Assembly: GCA_038874435.1 (NCBI GenBank) | Contig: JAVZCK010000001.1 | Span: forward strand, 154,255-218,254 | Reading direction: 5' to 3' | Source of the DNA: Thermoplasmata archaeon | Lineage (GTDB): Archaea; Thermoplasmatota; Thermoplasmata; Lutacidiplasmatales; SKW197 | DNA: 64,000 nt | Shown: positions 9,990-49,128 of the stretch, one piece after another | Layout of the letters: each line of letters begins with the position of its first letter | Position numbering within the stretch: position 1 is the stretch's first letter | The notes under the pieces: generated by a model | Database searches by the model: none | What the model was told of the DNA's origin: nothing | What the model saw: the letters and a program-made list of their open reading frames with translations, nothing else | Made by a program: the position numbers and the translations under genes

Positions 9990-10577
9990 CTACTCGATTA
10001 TCTCTGCATTCCTTGTAAGATATGCCAAATCTTGCTGCGAAAACATTTCTTTCATTACCGGTAGAATAAGAATTGAATTTGTGCGGAGAAGCTGGTCATA
10101 GAGGGTTTCTATCATCCGCATCACCGCAGGAAACTTGTTGTTAAGAATGAGAGTATCTAGGCAGTCTATAAGAACCACACAACCTGGCTTTTTTTCGATC
10201 ATTTCTGCAAGGTATCTTGATAGAATCCCAATGCTTGTAGGCGGGAGATTGTTTTTACCTGCTACACTTGTAAGCCAGATAAAAATTTCTGTTTGAACTC
10301 CATACTCTTCCATTATGCGCTCAGCACTGTTCCTTGATACGCAGATTGCAGTTTTGCCAGCATTCAGAAGGTCCTTGAGCAGCATGTAGCTTACTTTTGG
10401 CTTTGTCTCAAATACCACATACATCCTACCTTGCTTCAATTCTTTCCCATCTGTCTTCTTAGCAATTTTTTCTTTCAATTGTCTGAGAAAGTCCTCCTCG
10501 GACACATGTGTTCCACCCGTGATGTATTTTCTCTCTTCAGCCATCAGGTCACCCTTTGGTATGCTGCAAATCTGCAA
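9990..10577 (-). CDS. Stand-alone DUF835-like protein (RecA/KaiC-like fold without Walker A)
   Basis: 195 aa. Blocks 'ICVSRNS...IFIWLTS...GCVVLIDCLDTLILNNKF' align with residues ~285-420 of the giant protein ('LCVSTTF...VLWISES...GVLVLDCIETLILENGF'). Confidence 0.55.
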   Translation of the reverse strand: MQICSIPKGDLMAEERKYITGGTHVSEEDFLRQLKEKIAKKTDGKELKQGRMYVVFETKPKVSYMLLKDLLNAGKTAICVSRNSAERIMEEYGVQTEIFIWLTSVAGKNNLPPTSIGILSRYLAEMIEKKPGCVVLIDCLDTLILNNKFPAVMRMIETLYDQLLRTNSILILPVMKEMFSQQDLAYLTRNAEIIE

Positions 10578-12621: not shown

Positions 12622-12631
12622 GGTGGTCAAA

Positions 12632-16291: not shown

Positions 16292-19200
16292 ATGTATACT
16301 GGGGGCAAGAAAATGGACGCAAGAAAGATTGAGATAGAGGGCATAAATAAGCTAGTAGAAGAGGGAATACCTGCGGATTATATGCTGCTGTTGCAGACCG
16401 ATGAGGGGCTGGAAACAGACCTGCTTGTGAGACAGTATATAAAGGAAGCACTGACTAAAGGAGAGATTTGTATTGCGGTGTTATCCGAGAGTTCACCAGA
16501 TGACTTTAAAAAGTTGATGAGTGCAATAGGAATAAATGCTGAGACCCATGAAAAGAATGGCACGCTCTACATTGTGGACTGGTATTCCTTCAGAAATGAA
16601 AGAATAATAGGGGTAGAGGAGAAAGGTGCAATTTACAAATGCTCAAAGAGTTTAACAAATGTGGAAATTGCAATTTCAAAAATTCTGAAGAAAATTGAAG
16701 GCAAAAAATTCAGAGTTTATTCAGACATTCTTTCAAATGCTATAAAAGTTTTTGGCTTCGAAACCGCATTCAAGTTTTCGCAAGGGCTGACAGCGAGAAT
16801 CAAGAAATACAATGGCGGAGCTCTGTTCAAAATTTCCAAGACGATGCATGAGCAGAAGGTAATTTCCGCGTTTCACTCGCATTTCAACGGTGTACTGGAC
16901 ATTGAGCATCGAAGGGAAGAGGAGAGGGTGGTTGCAAGAATAGGAATAATTTCTTTAGATAATTTATTCTATGAAACCTCCTACAAGAAATTGGGTGTGA
17001 GCAAAACAAAGGGCATTATAATTATGGATGAGGAAGAGATGAAGGCAAAGCCAAAACCCGTTGTGAAGAAAGTTGTGAAAGAAGAGGTGGCAGAAGAGGA
17101 GACAGCAGAGGAGGAGGGTGGAGAGAAAATTGAAGAAATGAAAGGCTCAAGTGTTCTCATTTATGAGGAGGACCCCAAACACATCTACAAACTCTATCGC
17201 CAATTTCTTTCGGAAGGAATGCCAGGGCTCTGTGTTAGCACCACATTCCCAGCTAAACTCAAGAAACTCCATAAATTTGATTCAGAGGTGCTCTGGATTT
17301 CAGAATCCTCAGAGAAAGGTGCAGTGAAGCCAGGTAGAATGGAATTTGAGTTAATGCGTGAAGTGGGCAACTTCTTAAAAAACAACAAGGAAGGTGTGCT
17401 AGTTCTTGACTGTATTGAAACCCTCATCCTTGAAAATGGCTTTGATAAGGTTGTTAAGTTTCTGAAGAAGATTGGTGACATGGCCGCGGTGAACGGCAAC
17501 ACGGTTCTGGCTGTGATAAATGACAAGAGCATGGAGCAGGAGAAGCTGTATGTGCTTTCGAAAAGCTTTGATATGAAAATAACTCGTGAAGAACTGGAGA
17601 AGGAAGCAAAGAAGCCAAAGCCAGTTGAGGTAAAACCAGAAGTCGTGCCTGGGGCAAAGGAAGAGGTTGTGTCTGCAGAAGAGGAGAAACCAGTTGTTGC
17701 ACCTGCGGTGGAAAAAGAAGAGGTGAAGGTAGAAAAAGAGCCAGAGGCAGTGAAGGAAGAAAAGGCATTGGTTGGTAGAGAAGCATTTACAAATGGGTTG
17801 AAGAAGAGTGTGACTGCGAGAGAGGCCTACACCAATGGACTTGGAAAGCGGAAGCCAGGGTATGTAAACGGATTGAAGAAACCTGGCATGAGGCAAAGAC
17901 CAGCAAAAGTTAGCCGGGTAAAACAGGTTGTTGTGGGACTTGTGGTTGTGGTAATTGCCATCTCAGTTTTTGCATTCTGGCTTTTCACGATTCCTTCAGA
18001 AAAAATTAAGGTGGATGGAAACATAGATGATTGGCAGGGGCTTGCGGTTTATAAAGACAGTGAGGACTTTGCAAACCCAGACATAAAAATCACAGAATAC
18101 AGCATTTACTACAGCAATGAAAAATGCTATTTCTATGTGAAAGTTGCTGGCACTGCGTTTAATGGTGCAAACAGTGGCTATGATACCCTTGTTCTGTTTA
18201 TCGACAAGGACAGGAATCCAAACACTGGCTACAGGGTGGAGAACATAGGAGCAGATGCAAAGATAGAGATTAGCGGATTCAATGGCAACATTCATACTTC
18301 ATCAGTGGCAGTGTTTAAAGAAGGGAGTACATCTATAAAGCCAGAATTGAATTACAGTGCCTGGGAAAGTGTTGGCGGTGTGGTCGTGGAGAAAAGCGGG
18401 AACATTGTTGAAGGAAGTGCGAAGATTACAGGAATGACAGAGCCAATAGGCCTTGTTGCGATGCGACACTATGAGGGCAGTGTTTATGCAGAGAAACGGG
18501 GCATGGCGCTGGTAAGCAAAACTGAAGGAAGTTTAGTGGTTTACCAGAATTTTATTGGCAATGATGTGGTATATGCAGATGCTGATGTGCTCGAGCTAAG
18601 ATTGATTGCAAAGGGTAAGGATGTGCATGTGGAAAGCATAAGCGTGGCAAATGCGAATGTGAGTTTACCAAAGAAGGACATTGCAGTGAATGAAGAAGTG
18701 GTGGTGAGTTGCAAAGCAAAGAGCTTGACAAATGGTAAGGCATTTGAGTTTGGTGTACAGAGTGTGGACACGAATGTACCCTACAGAATTGTGGGCAACG
18801 GTGGCAAAGCATACTTTGGTTCCTTACCTTCAGGAATTGTGATTGATGGTGCGTTTGGTGATTGGCAGGGTGTGGAGAAGGGGAGTGATGTAAGTGGAGA
18901 TGCAAGCCAGAACATTGATTTGCGAGAGTATGCCAGTGCAATTGCAAGCAATGCATACTTCTACATGGCAGTGGATGGCACAATGCTTGCTGGCTGCGAA
19001 ATCCCTGTGCTTGGTGCCAGACCCCCAGTGCAGCCAGGACCACCAACGCCAGTGGTGATAAAAGAAAATCTGGGCACGGATGTGGCAAGGGTTTACATTG
19101 ATTTGATGAATTCTACAATCAACACCTTCAATCCAGCAATGATTTCTCATGGCTATCTGATTGAGTTACAAGGGAGAAATGGACAGGTAGTAAGTGCAAG

Positions 19201-22200
19201 GGCCTGGAAGTGGGAGAATGGTGTTAAGGCAGAGGAAATCCAGAATCCAAACATTGCTCATGGTTTGAGCGATGGTAAAATTGAGTTCAGTGTTGCAGGC
19301 AGTGCTCTTGCTGGCCTCAATAACGACACGAAATTCTACTTTGAGATGACAAACTGGCTTGGCGAAAAAGATGCAAGTGAGTTTGCTTACAGAGCAGGAA
19401 AAATCCAGCGTGAAAACACTATGGCAAATGGCGGGACAAGAGGCACACCACATTCACCGATACATATAATCGGTGATGTTGGGTTTCAAACAGAAGCACA
19501 GTTGAATGGGTGGCCTGGTGATGGAACCCAAGGAAATCCATACATTATAGATGGATATGAAATAGATGGAGGACAAGCACCAGCATTAGGTATGTATGGC
19601 ATCTGGATAGAGAACACGAATGTGTATTTTGTAATAAGAAACTGCACAGTTTACAATGCGACAAATTCTGGCAGTGCACCTTACGGTGCAGGAATTGCAC
19701 TAAACAATGTGAGGAATGGAACAATAGAAAACAACAAGTGCAATAACTCAATATATGGGATTTATCTATATGGGAATTCACGATTCAACATAATAACAAA
19801 TAACAATGCCTCTAGCAACAGCTATGGTGCACATTTGAACTACACAAACAACACCATTTTAACATTCAACACCATTACTAATAATGGAAACTATGGTCTT
19901 TACGTAGCTTCTTATTCCACAAACAACACCATAGCCTACAATAATGTCTCCAGCAACTCTAACTACGGCATTTACATCTACTCCTATTCCACAAACAACA
20001 CCATAGCCTACAATAATGTCTCCAGCAACTCTAACCATGGCATTTACATCTACTCCTATTCAATCAATAACACCATAACAAATAACAATGTATCCAACAA
20101 CTCCAAGGAGGGAATCCGTGTTGAGTCTGGGTGTTCCTACACAAAAATCAGCGGTAACAATGTATCTAGAAATATGGGACACGGAATTTTTGTCTATACG
20201 ATAACCTCATACTGCTCTATAGAGAGAAATACCGTTTTCAATAATAGCTGGACTGGAATATATGTTAATGGGAACGCTGGTGGCTACGGATATATCAATA
20301 TCTCTCGCAATGTTGTCTATTCCAATGGATATGGTGGTTATGACTATCACGGTATCTTTCTATACCAGTGTGTGGCTTGTAATGTGACTGAAAATAAAAT
20401 TTATGCAAATAATAACACCGGAATTTGCATATACTATAATTCTATGGGCCACAACATCACAAGAAATAATGTCTCAGATAATAAAGGAATAGGGATATAC
20501 TTACGTGGTTCACAAACAAATAACAATAAAATCATGTATAATTTATTTTATAACAACTCAGCGGAGGGCGTACTTATTTCAATTAATGCGTATAATAATG
20601 TAATCCACCATAATAGTTTCTGGAAAAACAATGGTTCTGCAACAAGAGGTGTAAATGGAAACCCACAGGCGCGAGATATACAAGATATATCTTTACAAAA
20701 TTACTGGTACGATGCTTCCACATACGAGGGAAATTACTGGAGCAATTGGGATGGAAGTGGATGGGGAACATCTAGTGCATACCCTGTAAATGGAACATGG
20801 AGATACGACATGTATCCAATCTCGATGCCAGTACTCTATCCACTCAACATAACAAGCAACGAGGACTTTGCATTCTATGCTATGCTTTACGGCTGGCCTG
20901 GAAATGGCACGAAACTAAATCCATACATTATTGATGGATACTACATAAACGGTAATGGGACTTTGAACTGCACATACATAGCAAATACAGATGTGTATTT
21001 TGTAATCCGGAACTGCTTGCTGAAGAACGCGAGTTTGAGCGATAGAATTGGTATTTATCTGACAGATGTAAAAAACGGAACTTTATTTAATAATACTATC
21101 AGCAATTGTTGGCGAGGAATCTATTTGTATGATGTCACAGACACGACTATAACTGAGAACAAAATTCCAGGCACATCTGGCAATGTGGGAGTTCGATTGG
21201 AAAATAGTTATGGAAATGTAATTCGGAGGACCCATATCTATGCTGTTTCATCATCAGGAGTTCTTCTATCCAACAGTAGTTTCAATTACCTGTCCGAGAA
21301 CAAAGTGAACAACACAAATTATGGGTTATCCTTATTCTCTTCCTCAAATAACAATATAATAACAAACAACAATCTATCTTATAATTTCTATGGGATTCAG
21401 GTCTCAGCCTCAAGCTATAACAACATCACCTATAACTGGATTTGCAACAGCACAAACTATGGAGTGTATATTGCATCTGGCTCATCAGGGAACTCTATTC
21501 ATCATAACAACTTTATCGGCAACAACGGTGCAGGCAAGGGTGTGAACGGCAACTGCCAGGCGTATGATGATGTTGGCGGGAACTACTGGAATAAAAGTAT
21601 CGGACAGGAAGGCAACTACTGGAGTAACTGGGATGGTACTGGTTGGGGCACTTCAAGTGCCTATCCGATAAACGGCGGTTCTGGTGGTGCGGATTGGTAT
21701 CCATTATCCAACAGAACATTTGCTCCGCTGCATATTGTTGGTAACGAGGAGTTTGTTTTCTATGCAAAACTCTATGGCTGGCCAGGTGCTGGAATTTCGG
21801 CAAATCCATACATCATAGATAGATACTATCTCAATGGTAATGCGACAGGCATTCCTTCATCTTACAACATCTGGATTGAGAACACGAATCTTTACTTTAG
21901 GATTTCTAACTCAACAATAAGAAACGCCACAGACAATATAGCGTCTCCGTACGGTGCTGGAATAGCGTTTATCTCCGTTACAAATGGAGTTGTGGATAAC
22001 AATACAGTTACAAACAATGTTGATGGTATTTACATTAAAATGTCAAATGGACTGAATATAAAAAATAACAATATTTCATTTAATTCGGAAACAGGAATAG
22101 ATATCTATGAGTGCAGTTACCTCACGATCACTGGCAATACAATGTACTATGACGGTATCCATTTAGATGGTGGGCAGGTTAGCCACTGGAATACCCACAT

Positions 22201-25200
22201 GATTCAAACAACTAACACAGTTAATGGAAAACCTATCAGGTATTACAGTAACCAAACTGGCAGTGCTGTAGATACTCTTGCAGGGCAGATAATCCTGGCA
22301 AACTGTATAGCGATGACAGTCAATGGTGTAGCAATTAATAATACCACCACTGCACTTCTCATCGGTTTTTCAAGGAATACGACAATCACAAACAATAACT
22401 TTTCGGATTGCAGATTCTGTGCAATTTTTATGCGAAATACAGAAAATGATACCATAAAATCAAATGTTCTTCTTAGAAATACCCATTATGGAGTATATTC
22501 AAATTCCGCCAACAATACGGAGATGGAATGGAATCTGGTCTCAGACAATGTGGATTACGGAATTTGTATCGTGTATTTCACATATGGAAGAATATCCAAT
22601 AATACTGTGCTCAGAAACAATTATGGAGGTATGGCACTCTTCTATGGTGGGAATAACACATTGCTGAATAACAACATTTCTCAGAATTACCTAGGCCTCA
22701 TTATAAGTAATAGCGGCTCAAACACAGTTACTTATAACACCTTCAGAACCAACATGAATTATGCAGTTCAAATTTATTCTGGATGTACTAACAATGTTCT
22801 GCATCACAACAATTTCTTCCAGAACAGAGGAGCGACTAAGGGAAATTCAGGTTTGAGTCAGGCCTATGATATCTCTGGGGCAAGCACATGGTATACTGGA
22901 TATCAGGGCAACTACTGGAGCAACTGGGATGGACATAACTGGAGCAGCTCAAATGCCTATCCTATTGATGGTGGAGTCGCTGCAGATTTCTTCCCATTGA
23001 AGCTGCCGACCAGGTTGCCAATAAGGATAAACAGCAATGCTGATTTTACACCTGCAAACGGGGTTAAAAGTGGAACTGGCTCACCCTGGGACCCCTACAT
23101 TATCTCCGACTGGGAGATTGACGGCACAGGCTATGGCTCCTGTATCTATATTGGGAACACAACCGCCTATTTCGTTATCAAGAACTGCTATCTCCACAAT
23201 GCAACAGGAAATGGTAATCTGTATTATGATAATGCCGCTGTTCAGCTGCGAAATGTGAAAAATGGAACTGTGAAAGAGAGCGTAATTTTAAACTCAACAA
23301 TCGGTGTTTACATTTGTCAAAATTCTGCTGGAATCACAGTACATAACAACACGATTTCTAATGGTGGTGATTTTGGTCAGGGTGTTTACATACAATCTTC
23401 AAGCAACAACACAATCACAAATAACACAATTTTTGACAATTACAACGGCATTTATATTGCATATTCTCCAAACAACACTATTGAAAACAACACAATTTAC
23501 AGTAATGGACAACATGGAATTTACATATATGATGCAGATAACAACACAATCCAACGAAACAATATTCATCATAACACCCAAGCTGGAATATACTCAAACT
23601 ATGGTGATAGCAATGTTATTCTCTTCAATGAAATCCATGAAAATAATGACGGTGTAAACTTAACCCACTCCACGTTCAACATTGTATCTGAGAACAATAT
23701 GTCAAACAACTTTGGATACGGGCTGTACATCTATGATTCAAACAATAATGTGATAAAGTATAACAAAATTCATAGTTGTGGCGAAGGAATCTTAATTGAT
23801 ACGTCGGATAGTATAACAATATTCCACAACAACATTTCCCAATCAGGCACTCATGGTCTCAGGTTTGCATATTCTTCAACTGGAACTATAGTTTTCTACA
23901 ACATTTTCTATGCCAACACAAATTTCGGCGTTTGTATTGCTGATGGAGCCACTGCCATCACAATTCATCACAACAGCTTCATAATGAACAACGGTGCAGG
24001 CAAGGGCGTTGTCGGTAATAATCAGGCATACGATGAGGTGGGCGGCAACTCTTGGTATGACGATACCGCGCAAGAAGGAAATTACTGGAGTAATTGGGAT
24101 GGCAAGGATTGGGGGACTTCAGACGCTTACTGGATTGGTGGTTATGAAACCTCTGACCACTATCCACTCTCCAAGCCAGTTCTTCCTCCACTTCACATCA
24201 ATGGAAATGCAGAGTTTGCCTATTACGCTGCGTTTTATGGTTGGGATGGCAATGGCACACCAAGTAATCCCTACAGAATAAGCAAGTACTACATAAATGG
24301 AGAGGGATTTGCATATTGCATATGGATAGAGAATACCACAGTGTATTTTAATGTTACAGATTGTGATTTACGAAACGCATCGCTAATTGATGACGACCCG
24401 CATGGCGCCGGGATTGCAATTTACAATGGTTCAAATGGTACAATTGGTTGGAATAATATAGCGAATAACTGGGTAGGTGTATTCCTCAACAATGCTTTGA
24501 ATTGCAGCATTGTTGAAAATAATTTGACGCACAACGGAATTGCAATTTTTGGTGATGCAGTTGAAGCATGGACTTCGCATGAAATTGATACTACCAACAT
24601 TGTGAACGGACAGCCAGTCTATTATTACAAGGATAGAGATTGGATTACAGTGCCGGAAGACGCAGGCCAGGTACTGATAGCGAATTGTACGAACATTATC
24701 GTGGCCAATATAACTACAGGAAATGCCACAATGGGTGTGGAGGCGGGTTTCAGCAGTGGGCTCAAGATAATGAACATGAGTTCATATTATAATCTGTTTG
24801 GAGCAATGATTGTGGGTTGTGATGACACCCAAATTACGAATTCTACTTTTGATACATCTTATGTATCCGGTGTTGAAATTCAATTCAGCACAAATGTTGT
24901 GATAGAGGAGAATGAGTTTAGTGCTACATTTCCTTTTGGCGACAAAGGAATCGGAGCATACCATTCTCTTGGTCTTCTAATAACAAGGAACGAAATTAAC
25001 AACATTCGTATAGGTATCCTATTTGAGACCTGTCCTCTCTCTCAGATAACTCAGAATGTGATAAATTATCGTGGAGAAAACTGGAATGATGCAGGCGTCA
25101 GAATATACAACTCCTCGTATGCATTTGTAGCTCAAAATCAGATAACCAGCATAATGGGAGATGGGTGCGGCATTTTCCTTGAGGCGACTGACAATGATAC

Positions 25201-27598
25201 TATTTCCAACAACGATATATCTGGTAACCCATCTGGATTTTCTGGTTCTGGGATCATTGTGGAATACTCGAAGAGCATTCGACTCTCAGAAAACATTGTT
25301 TACAATCATTTGCAGTATGCAATTTACATCACTGCATCCACCAGATGCGATGTGAGAGATAACAATATTTATAGTAGTTATTATGGTATCTTCGTTTATT
25401 CAGCGAATAGTAACAATGTTACATACAACGAGGTGATCGGGAACAATTATGGGATTCAGATCTCAAATGCCAATAACAACAATATCACATACAATAGCGT
25501 GACTTCCAATTCGGTCTATGGTATTGGTTTAGCATCTGCCTCTAGTAATAAGATTTTCCATAATGCGATTGCCCAGAACAATATCGGAATGTACATCTTT
25601 TCTTCCTCAACAAACAACAACATTACATACAATAATTTCAGTTGGAACATAGGTTATGGAATTAGTATTGTTCAAGGTTCATCTTCCAACATAATTCATT
25701 ACAACACCTTTATCGCAAACAACGGAGCTACTAGAGACGCTAATGGCAACCGCCAGGCAAAAGATGATGTGGGTGGAAATTCCTGGTACAATGGCACAAA
25801 CCAGAAAGGCAATTACTGGAGTAACTGGGATGGGGATGGCTGGGGCACAGCAAGTGCCTACCCGATTGATGGTATGGCGGGGGCAAGCGACTGGTATCCA
25901 CTCTCAGAACCGGCAATGCCAAAGCTTCCACGCCTTCATATTATAGGGAATGCAAACTTCAGTTACTTTGCGTCTATCTATGGATGGCTAGGGAATGGGG
26001 CAGCATGGGACCCCTACATAATTGACGGTTACGAAATAGACGGCGAAGGAGATTCTTACAGCATATGGATAGAGAACACGAATGTATATTTCATAATCCA
26101 GAACTGTAAAGTTTGGAATGCTACGAATATGAGTGCCAATCCGGGTGGCTCAGGAATGGCACTCTGGAATGTGTCAAATGGCACGATATACAACAACGCA
26201 GTGATACAGAATGCCAACGGCATTTATTTGAGCGTTTGCCACGGCAGTAACTTGATTGTAGGCAACAATGTACGAACAAACTCCGATGTAGGCATATCGG
26301 TTGATACCTGTGAGGATATTAGCATATATAGTAATGTTGTGGAATCAAACAATATAGGAATAAGTTTAGTATATTCATCATCCTGCACAATTTATGACAA
26401 TCATGTTACAGGAAATAATGGTAACGGAATTTATCTCTATGATACATCTACCTACAACTATGTTGGATATAACATAATAAACAGTAATAATAACCATGGA
26501 ATATATCTAAAAGAGGGCTGTGACTACAACATTATTGAGTATAATGATGTGGGCTCAAATTCTAATGGTATCTGTTTGGACCAGTCAAACTACAACACGA
26601 TTACAAACAATACAGTCGCAGGTAACGATGGTGGCATCTATTTGTCCTCCTCAAGCTACAACACAATAACAAACAATAATGTTATTAACAACAACCACGA
26701 TGGCATTCAGTTGGTTTCATCAAGCAATAATAACAACATAACAAACAACAATGCCTCTGAGAATCTTGCTCGTGGTATCTATTTAAATTCATCAAACTAT
26801 AACAAACTAACGGATAACACTGTCTCTGACAATTTGCAGTATGGCATCTTTTTGCAATCTTCAACTAACAACAACATAACAAACAACAATGCAGCAAATA
26901 ATAGTTATGGCATATATTTAGAGCAATCAAGTGCCAATATTCTCTCGGGCAACACTGTACATGGGAACGCATGGTATGGTATAATCATTCATGCTTCGAG
27001 CAATTACAATGTTGTTAAGAACAACAATGTTTCAAGTAACATAGGTTATGGGATTTCTCTATGGAATTTTTGCGGTTACAATAACATTTCTGAGAATTTT
27101 GTGGTCGGTAACAACGGTGTTGGAATTGGAATATACTATTCAAGCTATAATGACATCTACCTGAACAATGTTTCTGAGGGAAATGAGGATGGAATTCGTC
27201 TTTGGGCCTCCAGCAATAACAATAACATCACATACAACACACTTTACCACAACACAAATTATGGAATTAACATCACAGACAGCTCAACTGGGAACTACAT
27301 CTATCACAACTACTTCATCGGCAACAACGGTGCTGGTAAAGGTGTGTCAGGGAGCTGCCAGGCATACGACGAGGTTGGTGGAAACATATGGTATAACGGG
27401 ACCCTGCTGGAAGGCAATCAATGGAGTAACTGGGATGGTAACGGTTGGGGTACATCAAATGCCTATCCTATTGATGGTGGTGCCGGTGCAAGTGACTGGT
27501 ATCCACTTGGAGGGCCTGTGAACGAACTCTCTGTCCTACCAATTTTCGGCATTGTTATCCTAGGTATCTTGCTAATGAACTGTCGGAGAAGAAAGTGA
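16292..27598 (+). CDS. Giant (3768 aa) modular membrane protein. Cytoplasmic degenerate KaiC-like domain plus DUF835-like domain plus 'TNGL' motifs, one TM helix, then two 'DGxFxDWQG' domains and six right-handed parallel beta-helix (PbH1/NosD-like) supermodules, ending in a C-terminal TM anchor
   Basis: Single uninterrupted ORF. TM helix at ~17927-17996. C-terminal TM at 27535-27585 followed by RRRK. Six N-cap motifs 'NPYIIDGYxIxG...WIENTxVYFVIRNC' and six C-cap motifs 'HHNxFIxNNGAGKGVxGNxQAYDxVGGNxWY...EGNYWSNWDGxGWGTSxAYPIDGG..DWYPL'. True start may be 16313. Confidence 0.8.
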   Translation: MYTGGKKMDARKIEIEGINKLVEEGIPADYMLLLQTDEGLETDLLVRQYIKEALTKGEICIAVLSESSPDDFKKLMSAIGINAETHEKNGTLYIVDWYSFRNERIIGVEEKGAIYKCSKSLTNVEIAISKILKKIEGKKFRVYSDILSNAIKVFGFETAFKFSQGLTARIKKYNGGALFKISKTMHEQKVISAFHSHFNGVLDIEHRREEERVVARIGIISLDNLFYETSYKKLGVSKTKGIIIMDEEEMKAKPKPVVKKVVKEEVAEEETAEEEGGEKIEEMKGSSVLIYEEDPKHIYKLYRQFLSEGMPGLCVSTTFPAKLKKLHKFDSEVLWISESSEKGAVKPGRMEFELMREVGNFLKNNKEGVLVLDCIETLILENGFDKVVKFLKKIGDMAAVNGNTVLAVINDKSMEQEKLYVLSKSFDMKITREELEKEAKKPKPVEVKPEVVPGAKEEVVSAEEEKPVVAPAVEKEEVKVEKEPEAVKEEKALVGREAFTNGLKKSVTAREAYTNGLGKRKPGYVNGLKKPGMRQRPAKVSRVKQVVVGLVVVVIAISVFAFWLFTIPSEKIKVDGNIDDWQGLAVYKDSEDFANPDIKITEYSIYYSNEKCYFYVKVAGTAFNGANSGYDTLVLFIDKDRNPNTGYRVENIGADAKIEISGFNGNIHTSSVAVFKEGSTSIKPELNYSAWESVGGVVVEKSGNIVEGSAKITGMTEPIGLVAMRHYEGSVYAEKRGMALVSKTEGSLVVYQNFIGNDVVYADADVLELRLIAKGKDVHVESISVANANVSLPKKDIAVNEEVVVSCKAKSLTNGKAFEFGVQSVDTNVPYRIVGNGGKAYFGSLPSGIVIDGAFGDWQGVEKGSDVSGDASQNIDLREYASAIASNAYFYMAVDGTMLAGCEIPVLGARPPVQPGPPTPVVIKENLGTDVARVYIDLMNSTINTFNPAMISHGYLIELQGRNGQVVSARAWKWENGVKAEEIQNPNIAHGLSDGKIEFSVAGSALAGLNNDTKFYFEMTNWLGEKDASEFAYRAGKIQRENTMANGGTRGTPHSPIHIIGDVGFQTEAQLNGWPGDGTQGNPYIIDGYEIDGGQAPALGMYGIWIENTNVYFVIRNCTVYNATNSGSAPYGAGIALNNVRNGTIENNKCNNSIYGIYLYGNSRFNIITNNNASSNSYGAHLNYTNNTILTFNTITNNGNYGLYVASYSTNNTIAYNNVSSNSNYGIYIYSYSTNNTIAYNNVSSNSNHGIYIYSYSINNTITNNNVSNNSKEGIRVESGCSYTKISGNNVSRNMGHGIFVYTITSYCSIERNTVFNNSWTGIYVNGNAGGYGYINISRNVVYSNGYGGYDYHGIFLYQCVACNVTENKIYANNNTGICIYYNSMGHNITRNNVSDNKGIGIYLRGSQTNNNKIMYNLFYNNSAEGVLISINAYNNVIHHNSFWKNNGSATRGVNGNPQARDIQDISLQNYWYDASTYEGNYWSNWDGSGWGTSSAYPVNGTWRYDMYPISMPVLYPLNITSNEDFAFYAMLYGWPGNGTKLNPYIIDGYYINGNGTLNCTYIANTDVYFVIRNCLLKNASLSDRIGIYLTDVKNGTLFNNTISNCWRGIYLYDVTDTTITENKIPGTSGNVGVRLENSYGNVIRRTHIYAVSSSGVLLSNSSFNYLSENKVNNTNYGLSLFSSSNNNIITNNNLSYNFYGIQVSASSYNNITYNWICNSTNYGVYIASGSSGNSIHHNNFIGNNGAGKGVNGNCQAYDDVGGNYWNKSIGQEGNYWSNWDGTGWGTSSAYPINGGSGGADWYPLSNRTFAPLHIVGNEEFVFYAKLYGWPGAGISANPYIIDRYYLNGNATGIPSSYNIWIENTNLYFRISNSTIRNATDNIASPYGAGIAFISVTNGVVDNNTVTNNVDGIYIKMSNGLNIKNNNISFNSETGIDIYECSYLTITGNTMYYDGIHLDGGQVSHWNTHMIQTTNTVNGKPIRYYSNQTGSAVDTLAGQIILANCIAMTVNGVAINNTTTALLIGFSRNTTITNNNFSDCRFCAIFMRNTENDTIKSNVLLRNTHYGVYSNSANNTEMEWNLVSDNVDYGICIVYFTYGRISNNTVLRNNYGGMALFYGGNNTLLNNNISQNYLGLIISNSGSNTVTYNTFRTNMNYAVQIYSGCTNNVLHHNNFFQNRGATKGNSGLSQAYDISGASTWYTGYQGNYWSNWDGHNWSSSNAYPIDGGVAADFFPLKLPTRLPIRINSNADFTPANGVKSGTGSPWDPYIISDWEIDGTGYGSCIYIGNTTAYFVIKNCYLHNATGNGNLYYDNAAVQLRNVKNGTVKESVILNSTIGVYICQNSAGITVHNNTISNGGDFGQGVYIQSSSNNTITNNTIFDNYNGIYIAYSPNNTIENNTIYSNGQHGIYIYDADNNTIQRNNIHHNTQAGIYSNYGDSNVILFNEIHENNDGVNLTHSTFNIVSENNMSNNFGYGLYIYDSNNNVIKYNKIHSCGEGILIDTSDSITIFHNNISQSGTHGLRFAYSSTGTIVFYNIFYANTNFGVCIADGATAITIHHNSFIMNNGAGKGVVGNNQAYDEVGGNSWYDDTAQEGNYWSNWDGKDWGTSDAYWIGGYETSDHYPLSKPVLPPLHINGNAEFAYYAAFYGWDGNGTPSNPYRISKYYINGEGFAYCIWIENTTVYFNVTDCDLRNASLIDDDPHGAGIAIYNGSNGTIGWNNIANNWVGVFLNNALNCSIVENNLTHNGIAIFGDAVEAWTSHEIDTTNIVNGQPVYYYKDRDWITVPEDAGQVLIANCTNIIVANITTGNATMGVEAGFSSGLKIMNMSSYYNLFGAMIVGCDDTQITNSTFDTSYVSGVEIQFSTNVVIEENEFSATFPFGDKGIGAYHSLGLLITRNEINNIRIGILFETCPLSQITQNVINYRGENWNDAGVRIYNSSYAFVAQNQITSIMGDGCGIFLEATDNDTISNNDISGNPSGFSGSGIIVEYSKSIRLSENIVYNHLQYAIYITASTRCDVRDNNIYSSYYGIFVYSANSNNVTYNEVIGNNYGIQISNANNNNITYNSVTSNSVYGIGLASASSNKIFHNAIAQNNIGMYIFSSSTNNNITYNNFSWNIGYGISIVQGSSSNIIHYNTFIANNGATRDANGNRQAKDDVGGNSWYNGTNQKGNYWSNWDGDGWGTASAYPIDGMAGASDWYPLSEPAMPKLPRLHIIGNANFSYFASIYGWLGNGAAWDPYIIDGYEIDGEGDSYSIWIENTNVYFIIQNCKVWNATNMSANPGGSGMALWNVSNGTIYNNAVIQNANGIYLSVCHGSNLIVGNNVRTNSDVGISVDTCEDISIYSNVVESNNIGISLVYSSSCTIYDNHVTGNNGNGIYLYDTSTYNYVGYNIINSNNNHGIYLKEGCDYNIIEYNDVGSNSNGICLDQSNYNTITNNTVAGNDGGIYLSSSSYNTITNNNVINNNHDGIQLVSSSNNNNITNNNASENLARGIYLNSSNYNKLTDNTVSDNLQYGIFLQSSTNNNITNNNAANNSYGIYLEQSSANILSGNTVHGNAWYGIIIHASSNYNVVKNNNVSSNIGYGISLWNFCGYNNISENFVVGNNGVGIGIYYSSYNDIYLNNVSEGNEDGIRLWASSNNNNITYNTLYHNTNYGINITDSSTGNYIYHNYFIGNNGAGKGVSGSCQAYDEVGGNIWYNGTLLEGNQWSNWDGNGWGTSNAYPIDGGAGASDWYPLGGPVNELSVLPIFGIVILGILLMNCRRRK
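19913..20056 (+). repeat. Two nearly identical tandem 72-bp units (24-aa beta-helix rungs 'YSTNNTIAYNNVSSNSN[Y/H]GIYIYS') inside the giant gene
   Basis: Units 19913-19984 and 19985-20056 differ at ~2 positions (aactacggc vs aaccatggc). A diverged third unit follows. Confidence 0.85.
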
Positions 27599-27729: not shown

Positions 27730-30700
27730 GTGGTAATGATGAAATTGGAGAGTAAAACTACGAAGAGTTTAGGGCTTAGAAATGGCAGAGACAACACCCG
27801 TGGTTTTACAAATGGGCTGACAAATGGTTTCACCAACGGGAATGGTTATAGGGCAGGAAGAAAATTGAAGAAAAGCAGAAGCCATGGCAAAGTTTTGGCT
27901 GTTTTTGTGCTTGCAATGCTTGTGGTTAGCGTTGTAGCGGTTCTCACATGGCAGAGCAGCAGTGCTGGTGCGATAAGGATAGATGGCAGTTTTGAGGACT
28001 GGCAGGGCGTTGAAAAGACGACGAAGAAAAGGGATTTTGGTGTGCCAGAGAACATAGACCTTGCTGAGTATGCAACTGCAGAAACGGGCAAGAATGTGGC
28101 ATTCTACGCAAAGGTGTATGGCAATTTGCTTGCTGGTGATGGTAGATATACAATTGAGGCACCCTCAGAGAACCCAGTGTATGTGGCAAATCAGAGGGAA
28201 ATGGCAATCCCAAATGCAAATGGCAGAGATGTAGCTTATGTGTTTGTTGACGCAGATAACAATCCTGCAACAGGTTTCAAACCATCGCAAAACTTCGCAG
28301 TGGGTGCGGAGAAATCGATAGAGATTGTGGGCAAGAATGGGAAGATAGAGGCAAGTAGGGTGCTGACATTTGCTGGTGTGGTGCAGCAGGAGTGGAATTG
28401 GCACATTGGAGAGAGTGTGGCTACAGCAACAAATGGCAAAGAAATGGAGACGATGGCAGGTAAGAATTTACTTGGTGTTGGTGAAAATTACGCAGTTTAC
28501 TTCTACATGATTGACTGGCAGAACATGGAATGCAAGCTGGAGAATGCGTTGCGGTGTGAAAATGCGAGGTTCACAATGTTTGGGCTGTATCTGTCTCCTC
28601 AAGCAGAAGTGCGGACCAGAGATGTGGGAATGGAAATAAGAGGCACACCACACGCAGTGATTCACATAAACGGGAATGCGGATTTTGCTACACAAGCAAC
28701 AAGTGAGGGCTGGCCTGGTGATGGAAGCCAGAGCAACCCATACATAATTGAAGGCTACGAGATAGACGCAAATGGCGGAAGTCATTGCATCTGGATAGAG
28801 AACACTAATGTATATTTTGTGATAAGAAACTGCAAGCTTTACAATGCGACAGATTCATCAGGTCTTTTCCCATATTCATCAGGAATTTGCCTAAGGGATG
28901 TACAATTTGGCAAACTAGAGGCTAACCATGTATATGGGACCTTCAGAGGGGTCTTTCTTGATTCTTCACACAATAACATCATAATCAATAACAATGCTTC
29001 CGGTAACACATATTATGGCATATATTTAACTTCCTCGACAAAGAATACTCTAACACTTAACAATGGCTCTTCCAATGGATATGAAGGCATTAGACTATCT
29101 TCATCGAGCAATGACAACCACCTTACAAACAACAATGTCTCTGGCAACTTCCAATATGGCATTCGTTTGATATCATCAAATAACAATAACATCACAAATA
29201 ATACCGTATCTACCAATGCCCAATACGGGATCAGGTTAGCATCTTCAAGTGACAACAAAATAACATACAATTGGATTTGCAACAATACAAACTATGGAGT
29301 CAACATCACGTCTGGTTCCACAGGCAACACAATCCACCACAACAATTTCATCGGTAACAACGGTGCAGGCAAAGGCGTTTCTGGCAATTGCCAGGCATAC
29401 GATGATTCTGGCGGCAACTTTTGGTATGACAGCGCAGCCCATGAGGGCAATTACTGGAGTAACTGGGACAGACGTAACTGGGGCACACCAAATGCCTATC
29501 CCATTGATGGAGGCGCTGGTGCGAGCGACTGGTATCCTATCAGGACGCATCTTCCAATACACATCAACGGTGACGCAGATTTCGCAAACCAGGCAGCAAA
29601 TGAGCACTGGCAGGGTAATGGAAGCCAGAGCAATCCCTACATTATTGAAGAATATGAGATAGACGGTGCGGGTGGACCATACTGTATATGGATAGAGAAC
29701 ACAACAGTTTATTTTACAATCAGAAATTGCACCGTGTTTAACGCTACATCTACCAGCAGTGCACCTCAGGGCACAGGAATTGCATTGAATAATGTTAAAA
29801 ATGGAACAGTGGAAAATAATATATGCTATAACTCAAGGTATGGCATTAACCTCTATGGAAATTCCCAGAACAACATAGTAACAAGCAACAATGTTAGTGG
29901 TAACCTCAACTATGGTATCCGTCTGTATTCGGCAAGCAATAATGAGATATCTAGTAATTATGGGTTTGGGGGTAGCCTTTGTACGGTCTATTTGTATACT
30001 TCCAGCAACAACAACATCACAAACAATGTTGCCAGTAGCAATACAAACTATGGCATCTACCTGTATGGCTCCGGCAACAACAACATAACCTATAACCACA
30101 TTTACGGCAATGCAAACTACGGACTTTATATTACATCTGCCTCCACTGCCAACAAAATCCATTACAATACATTTATTGGCAACAAGGGGGCAAGCAAGGG
30201 GATAAGTGATGGCAAATATCAGGCATACGATGGTGTTGGTGGGAATTTGTGGTATGACGACACCAAACAGAAAGGCAATTACTGGAGTAACTGGGACGGG
30301 AATGGCTGGGGCACCTCAGGTGCTTATTCCATTGACGGCATTGGTGGTGCAAGCGACTGGTATCCGCTTTCATTACTTCCGCTTTTACCTCTCCACATAA
30401 ACGGCAATTCCGAGTTTGTCGCGTTCGCCCAATTCTATGGATGGGCGGGTGATGGTAGTCAATCTAATCCATACATCATCGAGAATTACGAGATAGATGC
30501 GAATAACAGCAGATACTGCATTTGGATAGAAAACACGACAGTTTCCTTCTTGATCATAAATTGCGCTGTTTCCAATGCGACCGTTTCTGGCAGTGCACCA
30601 TATGGTGCAGGCATCGCCCTCAAAAATGTAACAAATGGAAGGATAGAAAACAACACATGTACTAATTCAAATTATGGAATTTACTTCTACAGTGGCTCAA

Positions 30701-31827: not shown

Positions 31828-32265
31828 ATGATGGAGACACGCACACAGTTCATTGTACTGATAGTCCTACTGGTGGTTATCACTTGCGGGTTTGGGGGTT
31901 ACTTCCTTTACAAGGACTGGAGTACACCGAAAGAGGTGACCAAGCACTACAATGTGAGCAATGCAACACTCAATCCAAACTCTGATATAGTGCTTGAGTT
32001 TTATTCGAAAGCAGGTGGAAACATCACTGGAACCATAAATGCAAGTAAGGAAGTGGAGGCATTCATATTAGACACTTTTAACTATCTGGAATACAGAAAA
32101 AACAGGAATCTTTCAGCCATCGCTCTAGTGTTTCTCACAAATGGCACGAGGATAAACATAACATGGGATGTTCCCTCAGAAAATTTCTGGTATCTTCTCA
32201 TTTACAACAACAAAACTGAAAATGTGGTAGTTGAATATGATGTCTGGTGTAGATTTCTCAGTTAA
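31828..32265 (+). CDS. Small membrane-anchored hypothetical protein with a sequon-rich ectodomain
   Basis: 145 aa with N-terminal TM 'FIVLIVLLVVITCGFGGYFLY'. Lies 21 nt downstream of the 1358-aa gene and is probably co-transcribed. Confidence 0.4.
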   Translation: MMETRTQFIVLIVLLVVITCGFGGYFLYKDWSTPKEVTKHYNVSNATLNPNSDIVLEFYSKAGGNITGTINASKEVEAFILDTFNYLEYRKNRNLSAIALVFLTNGTRINITWDVPSENFWYLLIYNNKTENVVVEYDVWCRFLS

Positions 32266-33810: not shown

Positions 33811-33820
33811 GAATTAGGTA

Positions 33821-42046: not shown

Positions 42047-42064
42047 AAAATCACCTGGCTTTTT

Positions 42065-43273: not shown

Positions 43274-43407
43274 GGGATAAGGTAAATGTGTATAAATAAT
43301 TAAGGGTGTTTTTTTATGTTACTATCAATGAGGGAACATTTTCTTGCGAGAAATGGCAATTGAAACTGCCAGAAGTCGCTTCCCAGAAGGGAAAATTAAA
43401 CAAAACA

Positions 43408-43418
43408 TATATATAGCA
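43408..43418 (+). promoter_or_regulatory. TATA-like element (acatatatata) upstream of the subtilase gene
   Basis: ~35 nt upstream of ATG 43452. GGAGG at 43441-43445. Confidence 0.4.
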
Positions 43419-43451
43419 CAGATGTATCTTCCTCCTAACAGGAGGCTTAAA

Positions 43452-49061: not shown

Positions 49062-49063
49062 AA

Positions 49064-49090
49064 CCTTTTTTTCCAAATTTTTTATTTTTA
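49064..49090 (+). terminator. T-rich tract after the subtilase gene
   Basis: 'cttttttt ccaaatttttt atttttta'. Confidence 0.3.
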
Positions 49091-49128
49091 CAGATAACTT
49101 TTTTATTTCCTCTGTATATGGCTTATCC

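What the first reader, a model, noticed from the sequence alone, without database searches (positions are those of the whole stretch)
17770..18100. Shared N-terminal anchor module ('TNGL' cytoplasmic motif + signal-anchor + IDGxFxDWQG domain) in three surface proteins
The same module appears three times.
- Giant protein: '...FTNGLKK...YTNGLGK...YVNGLKK...' then TM, then 'IKVDGNIDDWQGL'.
- 1358-aa protein (27795-28100): 'GFTNGLTNGFTNGNG' then TM, then 'IRIDGSFEDWQGV'.
- 835-aa minus-strand protein (39100-39260): 'SYNGLTNGRELFGG' then TM, then 'IKIDGKFEDWEGI'.
The ectodomains are otherwise different (beta-helix versus beta-propeller). The short tandem [F/Y]TNGL motifs sit on the cytoplasmic side just before the anchor helix. 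They could be a sorting, secretion or docking signal, for example for the adjacent KaiC-like or DUF835 proteins.
Basis: seen in the sequence. Interest (0 to 1): 0.75.

Follow-up and report, generated by a model that had tools for sequence, protein, structure and literature searches.

The report
Archaeal membrane anchor with TNG repeats
Three large surface proteins in this archaeal (Thermoplasmata) window share a real, inherited membrane-anchor cassette that turns out to mark a large undescribed protein family: short Thr-Asn-Gly repeats inside the cell, one membrane helix, then a sugar/heme-binding-type beta-sandwich sitting on the membrane; what the repeats do is still unknown.

Summary
The proteins are G (16292-27598), A (27730-31806) and B (36781-39288, minus strand). 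All three carry h-[TV]-N-G motifs, a basic stretch, one TM helix and an 'IxIDGxFxDWxG' domain. G has two copies of that domain. The N-termini are homologous (BLASTP E 3e-42 to 1e-54).

- **Family size.** A profile of the domain finds 1063 protein clusters (50% identity). Among genomes, nearly all hits are Thermoplasmatota, with 7-8 or more paralogues per genome.
- **Module linkage.** In 119 of 121 representatives a TM helix ends 15 aa or less before the domain. 105 have the motif in the 70 aa before that helix (5.7 versus 0.06 per 100 aa in ectodomains).
- **Reverse test.** An unbiased metagenome search for G[LF]TNG[LF]TNG gave 48 testable ORFs, and 46 carry the domain right after the TM.
- **Topology.** Charge bias (+4.0 inside, -2.2 outside) and upstream KaiC-like, DUF835, TPR, zinc-ribbon, HhH and HTH domains place the repeats in the cytoplasm. 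The helix is therefore a signal-anchor, not a cleaved signal peptide.

No Pfam or NCBIfam model covers either part, and no searched paper mentions the repeats. Docking of the repeats to KaiC-like proteins remains untested and only weakly supported.

The parts
16292..27598 (+). Protein G, 3768 aa: KaiC-like + DUF835 head, linker, TNG motifs, TM, 2 DWxG domains, giant NosD/beta-helix ectodomain, C-terminal TM
   Evidence: ORF; Pfam (NosD 690 bits, Beta_helix 652 bits, DUF835 86.5 bits, KaiC 35.1 bits)
16328..17035 (+). G aa 13-248: KaiC-like domain that lacks a Walker A GK[ST] (reads GIPADYMLLLQTDEGLETD), so probably inactive
   Evidence: Pfam PF06745 E=1.2e-8; sequence read
17171..17569 (+). 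G aa 294-426: DUF835, classed as an inactivated KaiC-like domain in PMC5847659
   Evidence: Pfam PF05763 E=1.8e-24; AF2 pLDDT >90
17786..17875 (+). G aa 499-528: three cytoplasmic motifs FTNGL, YTNGL, YVNGL, followed by a Lys/Arg-rich stretch up to nt 17926
   Evidence: conserved in orthologues P0018 and P0163; pLDDT 39-50, i.e. disordered
17927..17992 (+). G aa 546-567: signal-anchor TM helix, N-terminus inside
   Evidence: hydropathy 3.0; AF2 helix aa 542-566; charge bias
17999..18526 (+). G aa 570-745: DWxG domain copy 1 (IKVDGNIDDWQG)
18836..19426 (+). G aa 849-1045: DWxG domain copy 2 (IVIDGAFGDWQG)
27527..27583 (+). G C-terminal TM helix followed by RRRK
27730..31806 (+). Protein A, 1358 aa: short TNG tail, TM, one DWxG domain, NosD/beta-helix, C-terminal TM (nt 31714-31773)
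27805..27846 (+). A aa 26-39: FTNGLTNGFTNGNG, encoded by differing synonymous codons
27892..27951 (+). A aa 55-74: TM helix
27967..28599 (+). A aa 80-290: DWxG domain, modelled as a DOMON/CBM9-like beta-sandwich
36781..39288 (-). Protein B, 835 aa: YNGLTNG tail, TM, DWxG domain, five WNGxxW repeats of about 51 aa, PKD-like domain, weak C-terminal TM
39235..39255 (-). B aa 12-18: YNGLTNG
39136..39189 (-). B aa 34-51: TM helix
38503..39111 (-). B aa 60-262: DWxG domain (IKIDGKFEDWEG)
32231..34543 (.). Three stand-alone KaiC-like genes between A and B. 32231-33109(+) is weak and has no Walker A; 33106-33810(+) has an intact GTGKT; 33821-34543(-). Context only; a functional link is not shown
   Evidence: Pfam; sequences
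9990..10577 (-). Stand-alone DUF835-like gene (context only)
   Evidence: phmmer versus G DUF835, E=4e-13; aligned

Best explanation
G, A and B are paralogous members of a large, so far unnamed, essentially Thermoplasmatota-specific family of single-pass (N-in) membrane proteins. The family is defined by one cassette.

**The cassette, from inside to outside**
1. A cytoplasmic array of G-h-[T/V/I]-N-G units, 1 to more than 20 copies, spaced 4 or 6 residues apart.
2. About 15 Arg/Lys-rich residues.
3. A hydrophobic helix of about 20 residues.
4. A Pro/Glu/Ser connector of about 9 residues.
5. One to three DOMON/CBM9-like beta-sandwich domains, each beginning I-x-I-D-G-x-F-x-D-W.

**How I think it works**
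- The helix is an uncleaved signal-anchor.
- The fixed short connector places the beta-sandwich directly on the outer membrane face, as the foot of a variable ectodomain (beta-helix, repeat/propeller-like, or nothing recognisable).
- Most members are tied down again by a C-terminal helix.
- On the inside, the cassette links the surface part to a variable head: inactivated KaiC-like ATPase, DUF835, TPR, zinc ribbons, HhH, ArsR-HTH, or nothing.
- This is the build of a transmembrane receptor or adaptor rather than a passive adhesin.
- I take the TNG array to be a flexible, disordered juxtamembrane array of short linear motifs. It would give multivalent contact with a still unknown cytoplasmic or membrane-face partner, and/or set the spacing of the head from the membrane.

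**Shown:** homology, the cassette order, topology, fold class, taxonomic spread, and selection on the peptide.

**Inferred:** the receptor/adaptor role, ligand binding by the beta-sandwich, and an interaction role for the repeats.
For: - **Homology.** BLASTP E values from 3e-42 to 1e-54.
- **Family size.** 1063 clusters at E<=1e-3 and 257 at E<=1e-30.
- **Linkage.** 119 of 121 representatives have a TM ending 15 aa or less before the domain. 105, 91 and 80 of them have at least 1, 2 and 3 motifs upstream, about a 90-fold enrichment over ectodomains.
- **Loci scan.** All 32 ORFs in 694 kb of related loci that have at least 2 [TVI]NG before a TM carry the domain.
- **Reverse, unbiased test.** 46 of 48 testable ORFs from the metagenome pattern scan carry the domain right after the TM.
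- **Anchor-aligned profile of 99 representatives.** It shows the five zones, with I/I/D/G/F/D/W at 80-100%.
- **Motif logo and spacing.**
- **Topology.** Net charge +4.0 inside versus -2.2 outside. Cytoplasmic folds sit upstream (Pfam; counts).
- **Peptide-level selection.** Repeat units in one protein use many synonymous codon sets, for example 14 of 14 distinct in L018.
- **Taxonomy and paralogy.** The 41 best of 51 genome loci (L001-L041) are Thermoplasmata, Thermoplasmatota, Methanomassiliicoccales or unclassified archaeal MAGs. The two closest genomes have at least 8 and at least 7 loci.
- **Disorder.** The TNGL segment has pLDDT 39-50, next to a DUF835 domain above 90.
Against: - No partner for the repeats has been identified.
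- The motif is absent or degenerate in some family members. Examples are the HhH-headed subgroup P0008, L025, L027 and L028, and paralogues P0002, L004 and L034. It is therefore not needed for insertion, and whatever it does is dispensable in part of the family.
- Variable periods (2, 4, 6) and copy number fit a mere spacer equally well.
- The fold assignment rests on a model built from 16 sequences with two low-confidence loops. No sequence profile of CBM9, DOMON or EB_dh matches.
- The receptor idea is an inference from domain architecture only.
- Taxonomy for the 150 best hits themselves is unknown, because the library has no names.
Confidence: 0.6

Rival explanations
1. The TNG motifs are docking sites for KaiC-like/DUF835 ATPases, such as those at 32231-34543. 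Tail-only proteins like A and B would then recruit in trans what G carries in cis.
For: - G fuses KaiC-like and DUF835 to the cassette.
- 11 of 148 representatives have a KaiC-like head and 2 have DUF835.
- KaiC or DUF835 genes lie next to family genes in the window and in L001, L002, L017, L020, L036 and L041.
- The heads lack Walker A while neighbour 33106-33810 has it. This fits the published idea of inactive KaiC domains as adaptors for active ones (PMC5847659, citing Makarova 2017).
Against: - Proteins with a KaiC head in cis have the most repeats, which is not expected if repeats substitute for a missing head.
- Adjacency is seen in only about 8 of about 45 archaeal loci, and several of those are syntenic relatives. 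No genome background could be computed.
- AF2 shows no packing of the TNGL segment on DUF835 (shallow alignment, weak negative).
- Many heads are unrelated to KaiC: TPR, zinc ribbon, HhH, HTH.
Confidence: 0.15
2. The repeats are a targeting or sorting signal in the n-region of an extended signal sequence, functionally like YSIRK-G/S, KxYKxGKxW or ESPR in bacteria. Alternatively they are the recognition tag of a dedicated processing enzyme, like the tripartite sortase or exosortase signals. Either would route very large surface proteins to a special insertion site or pathway.
For: - The position immediately upstream of the basic stretch and hydrophobic segment is fixed. The last motif ends a median 16.5 aa before the TM.
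- The motif is restricted to large surface proteins. The subtilase in the same window uses an ordinary signal peptide without it.
- A has a possible AxA-like site (SAGA|I) after the helix.
- The tripartite look (motif, basic cluster, TM) recalls sorting signals.
Against: - In 55 of 148 representatives the first domain begins more than 200 aa from the N-terminus, behind up to about 1000 aa of folded cytoplasmic domains. The helix is then an internal signal-anchor.
- G and B have no plausible cleavage site.
- Paralogues that lost the motif keep the TM and domain.
- Copy number of 1 to 23 is unlike known targeting motifs.
Confidence: 0.12
3. The repeats have no specific partner. They are a flexible Asn-Gly-turn-rich spacer or entropic spring between head and membrane, tolerated and expanded as low-complexity sequence.
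For: - Predicted disorder.
- Variable period and copy number.
- Loss in some members.
- No fold or family model matches.
Against: - A very specific consensus (G 79%, then L/R/F, then T/V/I, then N-G) is kept across domains only 25-30% identical and encoded by diverged codons.
- Tail-only proteins such as A and B have nothing to space, yet keep tails 73-88% identical among several paralogues, as high as or higher than the folded domain.
- The sequence type is essentially exclusive to this cassette.
Confidence: 0.12
4. The resemblance among the three N-termini is chance low-complexity similarity.
For: The motifs are short and rich in N and G.
Against: - BLASTP E values of 3e-42 to 1e-54 across motif, TM and domain.
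- About 90-fold positional enrichment in 121 independent representatives.
- 46 of 48 in the reverse test.
Confidence: 0.01

Closest known systems
DOMON / CBM9-like beta-sandwich superfamily (CBM9 of T. maritima Xyn10A 1i82; ethylbenzene dehydrogenase gamma 2ivf_C; NxrC 7b04_C; glucodextranase C-terminal region 1ulv/1ug9; cellobiose dehydrogenase cytochrome domain)
   Different: There is no sequence-profile match to any Pfam model or any PDB sequence. Here the domain is always the first thing after a signal-anchor helix, often in 2-3 tandem copies. It has its own invariant IxIDGxFxDW start. The ligand is unknown.
TIGR04145 Firmicu-CTERM sorting domain (NCBIfam)
   Same: All four window copies give a weak match to the first 44-53 profile positions, which is the IxIDGxFxDW stretch.
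   Different: Scores are 14.9-21.5 bits against a cut-off of 50, and only a quarter of the profile is matched. That family is bacterial and C-terminal. This domain is archaeal and N-terminal to the ectodomain.
Conserved n-region motifs of extended signal peptides in large bacterial surface proteins (YSIRK-G/S, KxYKxGKxW, ESPR), recalled from general knowledge
   Same: A short lineage-specific motif lies just upstream of the hydrophobic segment of big surface proteins.
   Different: Those are single motifs in cleaved N-terminal signal peptides. Here the motif is repeated 1-23 times and precedes an uncleaved internal signal-anchor. It can sit behind about 1000 aa of cytoplasmic domains.
Archaeal KaiC-like ATPase signalling hubs with inactivated KaiC (iKaiC, DUF835) adaptor domains (Makarova, Galperin and Koonin 2017, as cited in PMC5847659)
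   Same: G and at least 13 of 148 relatives have KaiC-like or DUF835 heads. The heads lack Walker A, and active KaiC-like genes lie nearby.
   Different: The cassette (TNG repeats, TM, DOMON-like domain) is not mentioned in the text I could read. The 2017 paper itself was not available. Most family members have non-KaiC heads or none.
Single-pass receptors with carbohydrate-binding-module-like sensor domains, and membrane-tethered transcription factors (general knowledge)
   Same: An extracellular beta-sandwich, one TM helix and a cytoplasmic signalling or DNA-binding head, for example the ArsR HTH in P0040.
   Different: No signalling has been demonstrated. Many members carry huge adhesin-like beta-helix ectodomains and a second, C-terminal anchor.

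Membership tests
DOMON/CBM9-like fold superfamily | Beta-sandwich fold superimposable on CBM9, EB_dh gamma and DOMON structures | tested here: met
DOMON/CBM9-like fold superfamily | Match to a curated sequence model (Pfam CBM9_1, EB_dh, DOMON, Glucodextran_C) | tested here: not met
   hmmscan against Pfam-A at E<=10 returned none of these for any of the four copies. The PDB sequence search found nothing significant.
DOMON/CBM9-like fold superfamily | Ligand-binding residues (heme-ligating Met/His/Lys, or sugar-stacking aromatics) and actual ligand binding | not testable with these tools
   Needs a residue-level superposition, a structure, or binding assays.
TIGR04145 Firmicu-CTERM | Score above the curated cut-off (50 bits) over the 191-position profile | tested here: not met
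   14.9-21.5 bits, and only profile positions 1 to about 47.
Cleaved Sec-type signal peptide with an n-region motif (YSIRK/ESPR-like) | Hydrophobic segment within the first 60 residues or so, followed by a signal-peptidase site | tested here: not met
   The G helix is at aa 546-567, behind KaiC-like and DUF835 domains. In 55 of 148 representatives the first domain starts more than 200 aa in. There is no small-x-small site in G or B. A has a possible SAGA|I site that was not tested.
KaiC-like ATPase / DUF835 (head of G only) | Pfam PF06745 and PF05763 above gathering score | tested here: met
   35.1 bits (cut-off 26.6) and 86.5 bits (cut-off 33.1).
KaiC-like ATPase / DUF835 (head of G only) | Intact Walker A P-loop (GxxxxGK[ST]), implying ATPase activity | tested here: not met
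   G reads GIPADYMLLLQTDEGLETD at the P-loop position. Neighbour 33106-33810 has GAFGTGKT.
Regular beta-solenoid repeats (hexapeptide or pentapeptide repeat proteins), considered for the TNG array | A constant period (6 or 5) over several coils | tested here: not met
   NG-to-NG spacings are mixed: 4 (336 cases), 6 (253), 2 (124). The window's copy is predicted disordered.
Archaeosortase-type C-terminal sorting signals (PGF-CTERM and similar), considered for the C-terminal helices of G and A | Match to a curated CTERM model | tested here: not met
   Only a sub-threshold Loki-CTERM hit for A (16.8 bits versus 19.9) and none for G.

The most novel reading that the evidence does not exclude
The G-h-T-N-G array is a new multivalent cytoplasmic short-linear-motif platform. 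Through it, a whole class of Thermoplasmatota surface proteins would be coupled to cytoplasmic machinery such as KaiC-like ATPase hexamers or a dedicated insertion or clustering factor. The cassette would then be the core of an archaeal outside-in / inside-out transmembrane signalling or adhesion-receptor system, loosely comparable to integrin tails. Its DOMON-like foot would sense a cell-envelope or environmental glycan.
Probability: 0.2. Interest if true: 0.8.

Novelty: new variant of a known kind. Interest (0 to 1): 0.58.

Why it matters
Thermoplasmatota are abundant in sediments, soils, oceans and hot springs, and almost all are uncultured. How they build and control their cell surface is largely unknown.

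This cassette defines more than 1000 protein clusters. Each genome carries several paralogues, including its largest proteins. Neither half of the cassette has a Pfam or NCBIfam model, so these genes are currently annotated only by their beta-helix parts or as 'hypothetical'.

A named anchor module would have three uses:
- It would improve annotation and topology prediction, marking these proteins as N-in type II and often double-anchored.
- It would flag a set of candidate transmembrane receptors whose cytoplasmic heads are the KaiC-like 'hub' domains that have been proposed, but never shown, to signal in archaea.
- It would supply a short, easily synthesised peptide (GLTNGLTNG) as bait to find the partner.

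Tried and rejected
- **Curated models.** Pfam and NCBIfam scans of the four N-terminal modules at E<=10 gave no model for the repeats or the domain, only sub-threshold Firmicu-CTERM. Two earlier calls failed on reading frame.
- **Word-indexed homologue searches** were too insensitive: 7, 10 and 4 hits. The exhaustive profile search was what revealed the family.
- **PDB sequence search** with the domain profile found nothing meaningful.
- **Cis-docking test.** An AF2 model of G aa 270-600 shows the motif region disordered. The alignment had only 6 sequences, so this is a weak negative.
- **Solenoid idea** for the repeats was rejected on mixed periods.
- **Replication-slippage artefact** was rejected on codon diversity.
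- **Literature.** No paper contains LTNGLTNG, GLTNGL, GRTNGL or similar strings. A 'TNGL'+archaea search returned only irrelevant hits. Makarova 2017 could not be read.
- **Source of the window.** An exact look-up of the window's S15 protein found no record.
- **C-terminal anchors** matched no CTERM sorting model above threshold.
- **KaiC neighbourhood enrichment** could not be judged, because no whole-genome background is available.
Full report
**1. What is in the window**

The window is archaeal. It encodes eIF-6, ribosomal protein S15 with the S13/S15 N-terminal domain, and KaiC-like genes. Its closest database relatives are MAGs labelled Thermoplasmata archaeon.

Three ORFs carry the feature:
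- G: 16292-27598 (+), 3768 aa.
- A: 27730-31806 (+), 1358 aa.
- B: 36781-39288 (-), 835 aa.

- G has FTNGL, YTNGL and YVNGL at aa 499, 513 and 524 (nt 17786-17875). A Lys/Arg-rich stretch follows, then a helix at aa 546-567, then IKVDGNIDDWQG at aa 572.
- A has FTNGLTNGFTNGNG at aa 26-39, a helix at aa 55-74 and IRIDGSFEDWQG at aa 82.
- B has YNGLTNG at aa 12-18, a helix at aa 34-51 and IKIDGKFEDWEG at aa 64.

G and A also end in a C-terminal hydrophobic helix plus a basic tail.

Upstream of its motifs, G has a KaiC-like domain (aa 13-248) and a DUF835 domain (aa 294-426). Its ectodomain is an enormous NosD/right-handed beta-helix array. A is also beta-helix. B has a PKD-like hit and five ~51-aa WNGxxW repeats.

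**2. Is it more than chance?**

Yes.
- BLASTP aligns A and B over 314 residues starting at aa 17 and aa 3, so through motif, helix and domain, with E=3e-42.
- G's second domain copy matches A with E=1e-54.
- G's motif, TM and first copy match A with E=3e-18.
- A six-frame regex scan finds the two sequence patterns essentially nowhere else in the 64 kb.

**3. The module recurs on a large scale**

I aligned the four window copies of the domain only, without motif or helix (A1). I then searched 1.84 billion representative proteins exhaustively.
- 1063 clusters score E<=1e-3, 750 score <=1e-10 and 257 score <=1e-30.
- The query contained no N-terminal sequence, so the N-termini of the hits are an independent test.
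- Among 121 of the best 148 hits (those not already in hand) that have at least 40 residues before the first domain, 119 have a strong hydrophobic helix ending within 15 residues of the domain start.
- 105, 91 and 80 of them have at least 1, 2 and 3 h-[TVIS]-N-G motifs in the 70 residues before that helix.
- Motif density is 5.7 per 100 aa there, against 0.06 per 100 aa in the same proteins' ectodomains.
- Many relatives have far more copies than the window's proteins. Examples are 'GRTNGLTNGL' ten or more times, 'GLVNGRGRVNG' and 'NGNGLTNGNGI'.

The reverse test used one scan of public metagenome contigs for DNA able to encode G[LF]TNG[LF]TNG.
- These gave 67 distinct ORFs of 200 aa or more. 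52 have a TM helix within 150 aa downstream, and 48 have enough sequence after the helix to judge.
- 46 of those 48 carry the domain within 25 aa of the helix end.
- In 694 kb of related genome loci plus the window, all 32 ORFs with at least two [TVI]NG before a TM carry the domain.

The three parts are therefore one evolutionary unit, though they can be separated. P0006 and L123 join the TNG tail and helix directly to the beta-helix without the domain. Some members keep helix and domain but have lost the motif.

**4. Anatomy of the cassette**

I anchored 99 representatives on the Asp of IxIDG. This gives five zones:
- An N/G/T/L-rich zone (-60 to -47).
- An Arg/Lys-rich zone (-47 to -32).
- A hydrophobic zone (-31 to -13), with no strongly conserved specific residue.
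- A Pro/Glu/Ser connector (-12 to -4).
- I(83%)-x-I(80%)-D(98%)-G(100%)-x-F(87%)-x-D(96%)-W(99%).

The repeat unit is G(79%)-[L 43, R 15, N 12, F 6]-[T 43, V 21, I 14]-N-G. Successive NG pairs are 4 (336 cases), 6 (253) or 2 (124) residues apart. The median is 8 NG in the 120 aa before the helix, and the maximum is 23.

Within one protein the units are written with many different synonymous codons, for example 14 distinct 9-mers for 14 units in L018 and 7 of 7 in L003. A's own FTNGLTNGFTNG uses ACA AAT GGG, ACA AAT GGT and ACC AAC GGG. The peptide, not the DNA repeat, is what is maintained.

**5. Topology**

Three lines of evidence agree.
- The 15 residues on the repeat side of the helix carry a mean net charge of +4.0. 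The other side carries -2.2. By the positive-inside rule, the repeats are cytoplasmic.
- The sequence upstream of the repeats, where long enough, consists of typical cytoplasmic folds. These are KaiC-like ATPase domains (11 of 148), DUF835 (2), zinc ribbons (36 by pattern), TPR, HhH, and in P0040 an ArsR-type HTH.
- The helix is therefore an internal signal-anchor. It can lie up to about 1015 residues from the N-terminus, which rules out a classical cleaved signal peptide for the family as a whole. Only A has a conceivable SAGA|I site.

83 of 127 representatives also have a C-terminal helix. The usual arrangement is therefore N-in, ectodomain out, C-in.

**6. The domain**

No Pfam model matches it even at E<=10. 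NCBIfam gives only sub-threshold hits of all four copies to the first 44-53 positions of TIGR04145 Firmicu-CTERM (14.9-21.5 bits, cut-off 50). No PDB sequence matches.

An AF2 model of A aa 78-300 from a 16-sequence alignment has mean pLDDT 77.8 and pTM 0.78. It is an all-beta sandwich with one disordered loop and a disordered tail.

Fold comparison:
- Foldseek's only near-significant PDB hit is Arthrobacter glucodextranase.
- It also gives 10.1 to nitrite oxidoreductase NxrC, 9.7 to a Bacteroides putative carbohydrate-binding protein, 9.4 to glucodextranase and 7.0-7.4 to cellobiose dehydrogenase cytochrome domains.

This is the DOMON/CBM9-like sugar- or heme-binding sandwich.

The constant ~9-residue connector means the domain sits directly on the outer membrane face. 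I infer that it is the 'foot' of these proteins and may bind an envelope glycan or an external ligand. That has not been tested.

**7. Distribution**

A scan of one genome per GTDB species gave 51 loci.
- The 41 best (L001-L041) are Thermoplasmata, Thermoplasmatota, Methanomassiliicoccales, Saliniplasma or unclassified archaeal MAGs.
- The two closest genomes (SKW197 and QQ_201709_bins_14) each contribute at least 7-8 loci.
- Tandem paralogues occur, such as three in L011 and G followed by A in the window.
- Ten weak bacterial hits (Bacteroidota and others, E around 1e-4 to 1e-5) have the domain. In the four that passed my profile re-check (L043, L045, L048, L049), it is not next to a TM or motif.

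The cassette, as opposed to the fold, appears specific to Thermoplasmatota.

**8. What do the repeats do?**

This is the part that is not settled.

*Facts*
- The position next to the membrane is conserved.
- The consensus is specific and is maintained at the peptide level.
- The tails of several A-type paralogues are 73-88% identical, as conserved as or more conserved than the folded domain (72-87%). Other paralogues have lost the motif (16-45% tail identity) while the domain stays 67-80% identical.
- An AF2 model of G aa 270-600 gives DUF835 above 90 pLDDT. The acidic linker and the TNGL segment score 30-50, and the helix 70-89. The motif region is therefore predicted disordered and does not dock on DUF835 in cis. 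The alignment had only 6 sequences, so this is a weak negative.
- The mixed periods exclude a regular solenoid.

- It has some circumstantial support. There are KaiC/DUF835 fusions and some neighbourhoods (the window, L001, L002, L017, L020, L036, L041).
- G's KaiC-like domain lacks a Walker A motif, whereas neighbour 33106-33810 has GTGKT. This fits the published notion that inactive KaiC domains act as adaptors (PMC5847659).
- Against it: adjacency is seen in only about 8 of about 45 archaeal loci. Repeats are most numerous precisely in proteins that already have a KaiC head. Most heads are not KaiC-like.

*My best reading*
- I take the array to be a disordered, multivalent short-linear-motif platform or spacer. 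It would serve the whole family regardless of head type, so the partner, if any, is more likely a common membrane-proximal factor than KaiC specifically.
- I put about 0.9 on the structural and evolutionary description and roughly one in three on an interaction role for the repeats.
- The stated confidence of 0.6 is for the explanation as a whole.

**9. Comparison with what is known, and novelty**

- The fold (DOMON/CBM9), type II signal anchors, KaiC-like hubs and beta-helix adhesins are all known.
- The G-h-T-N-G juxtamembrane repeat and its obligate coupling to a membrane-proximal DOMON-like domain appear not to be described.
- No Pfam or NCBIfam model covers either half.
- None of 8 million searched papers contains the repeat strings.
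- The key KaiC review could not be read, so prior mention there cannot be excluded.

I class it as a new variant of a known kind: a single-pass receptor or anchor architecture.

**10. Verdict**

Interest is moderate to high because the family is large, unannotated and mechanistically open.

Noticed in passing
window 16328-17035; 32231-33109; 33106-33810; 33821-34543: The KaiC-like domain of G (GIPADYMLLLQTDEGLETD) and the weak KaiC-like ORF at 32231-33109 (SEMGAGHIEF) lack a Walker A GK[ST]. 33106-33810 has an intact GAFGTGKT, and 33821-34543 has GCAGSMKS. This looks like inactive adaptor domains sitting beside active ATPases.
   Followed up: partly
P0006; L123 minus strand: Two relatives have the TNG tail and TM helix fused directly to the beta-helix ectodomain with no DWxG domain. 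The cassette can therefore lose its foot domain.
   Followed up: partly
P0040; P0008, L025, L027, L028, L031, L041: One family member has an ArsR-type HTH as its cytoplasmic head, the build of a membrane-tethered transcription factor. A subgroup with an HhH head and an acidic linker has no TNG motif, or only one.
   Followed up: partly
P0164, P0165: These DUF835 proteins have the opposite arrangement: a large N-terminal extracellular part, several TM helices, zinc ribbons, then a C-terminal DUF835. DUF835 is thus attached to membrane proteins in at least two different ways in these archaea.
   Followed up: no
window 36781-39288 (-), aa 356-571: B has five repeats spaced 50-54 aa apart that begin WNGTHWLI, WNGEFWVF or WNGQYFLI. 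No Pfam match.
   Followed up: partly
window 43344-49061 (+): A 1905-aa subtilase has PPC, Big_13 and four Glucodextran_B domains plus a C-terminal TM helix. It uses an ordinary signal peptide (MLRKVGSILVVTAMIAAALIVLTQPVNAAS, from an internal Met) with no TNG motif. Not all large surface proteins of this organism use the cassette.
   Followed up: partly
window 48982-51729 (+) versus 43344-49061 (+): The class I tRNA synthetase ORF, as listed from its first GTG, overlaps the subtilase ORF by 80 nt. Its real start is probably further downstream.
   Followed up: no
window 27527-27583 and 31714-31773: The C-terminal helices of G and A follow a shared 'AYPIDGGAGASDWYPLGGPV' stretch and end in basic tails. 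There is only a sub-threshold Loki-CTERM hit (16.8 versus 19.9 bits) for A. This may be a lineage-specific C-terminal sorting signal.
   Followed up: partly
window 31828-32265 (+): A small 145-aa ORF with an N-terminal TM helix and no family match lies between A and the KaiC-like genes.
   Followed up: no
window 10790-14637 (+) and 39273-43273 (-): Flanking metabolic genes: a four-gene sulfhydrogenase-like NiFe hydrogenase cluster, plus aspartate dehydrogenase, ETF alpha/beta (alpha with a ferredoxin domain) and acyl-CoA dehydrogenase. They appear unrelated to the finding.
   Followed up: no
L011 8231-20340: Three family paralogues lie in tandem with nearly identical juxtamembrane segments (…GLTNGNGLTNGN…GRSPKQTHIDLIRTK), which suggests recent local duplication.
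   Followed up: no
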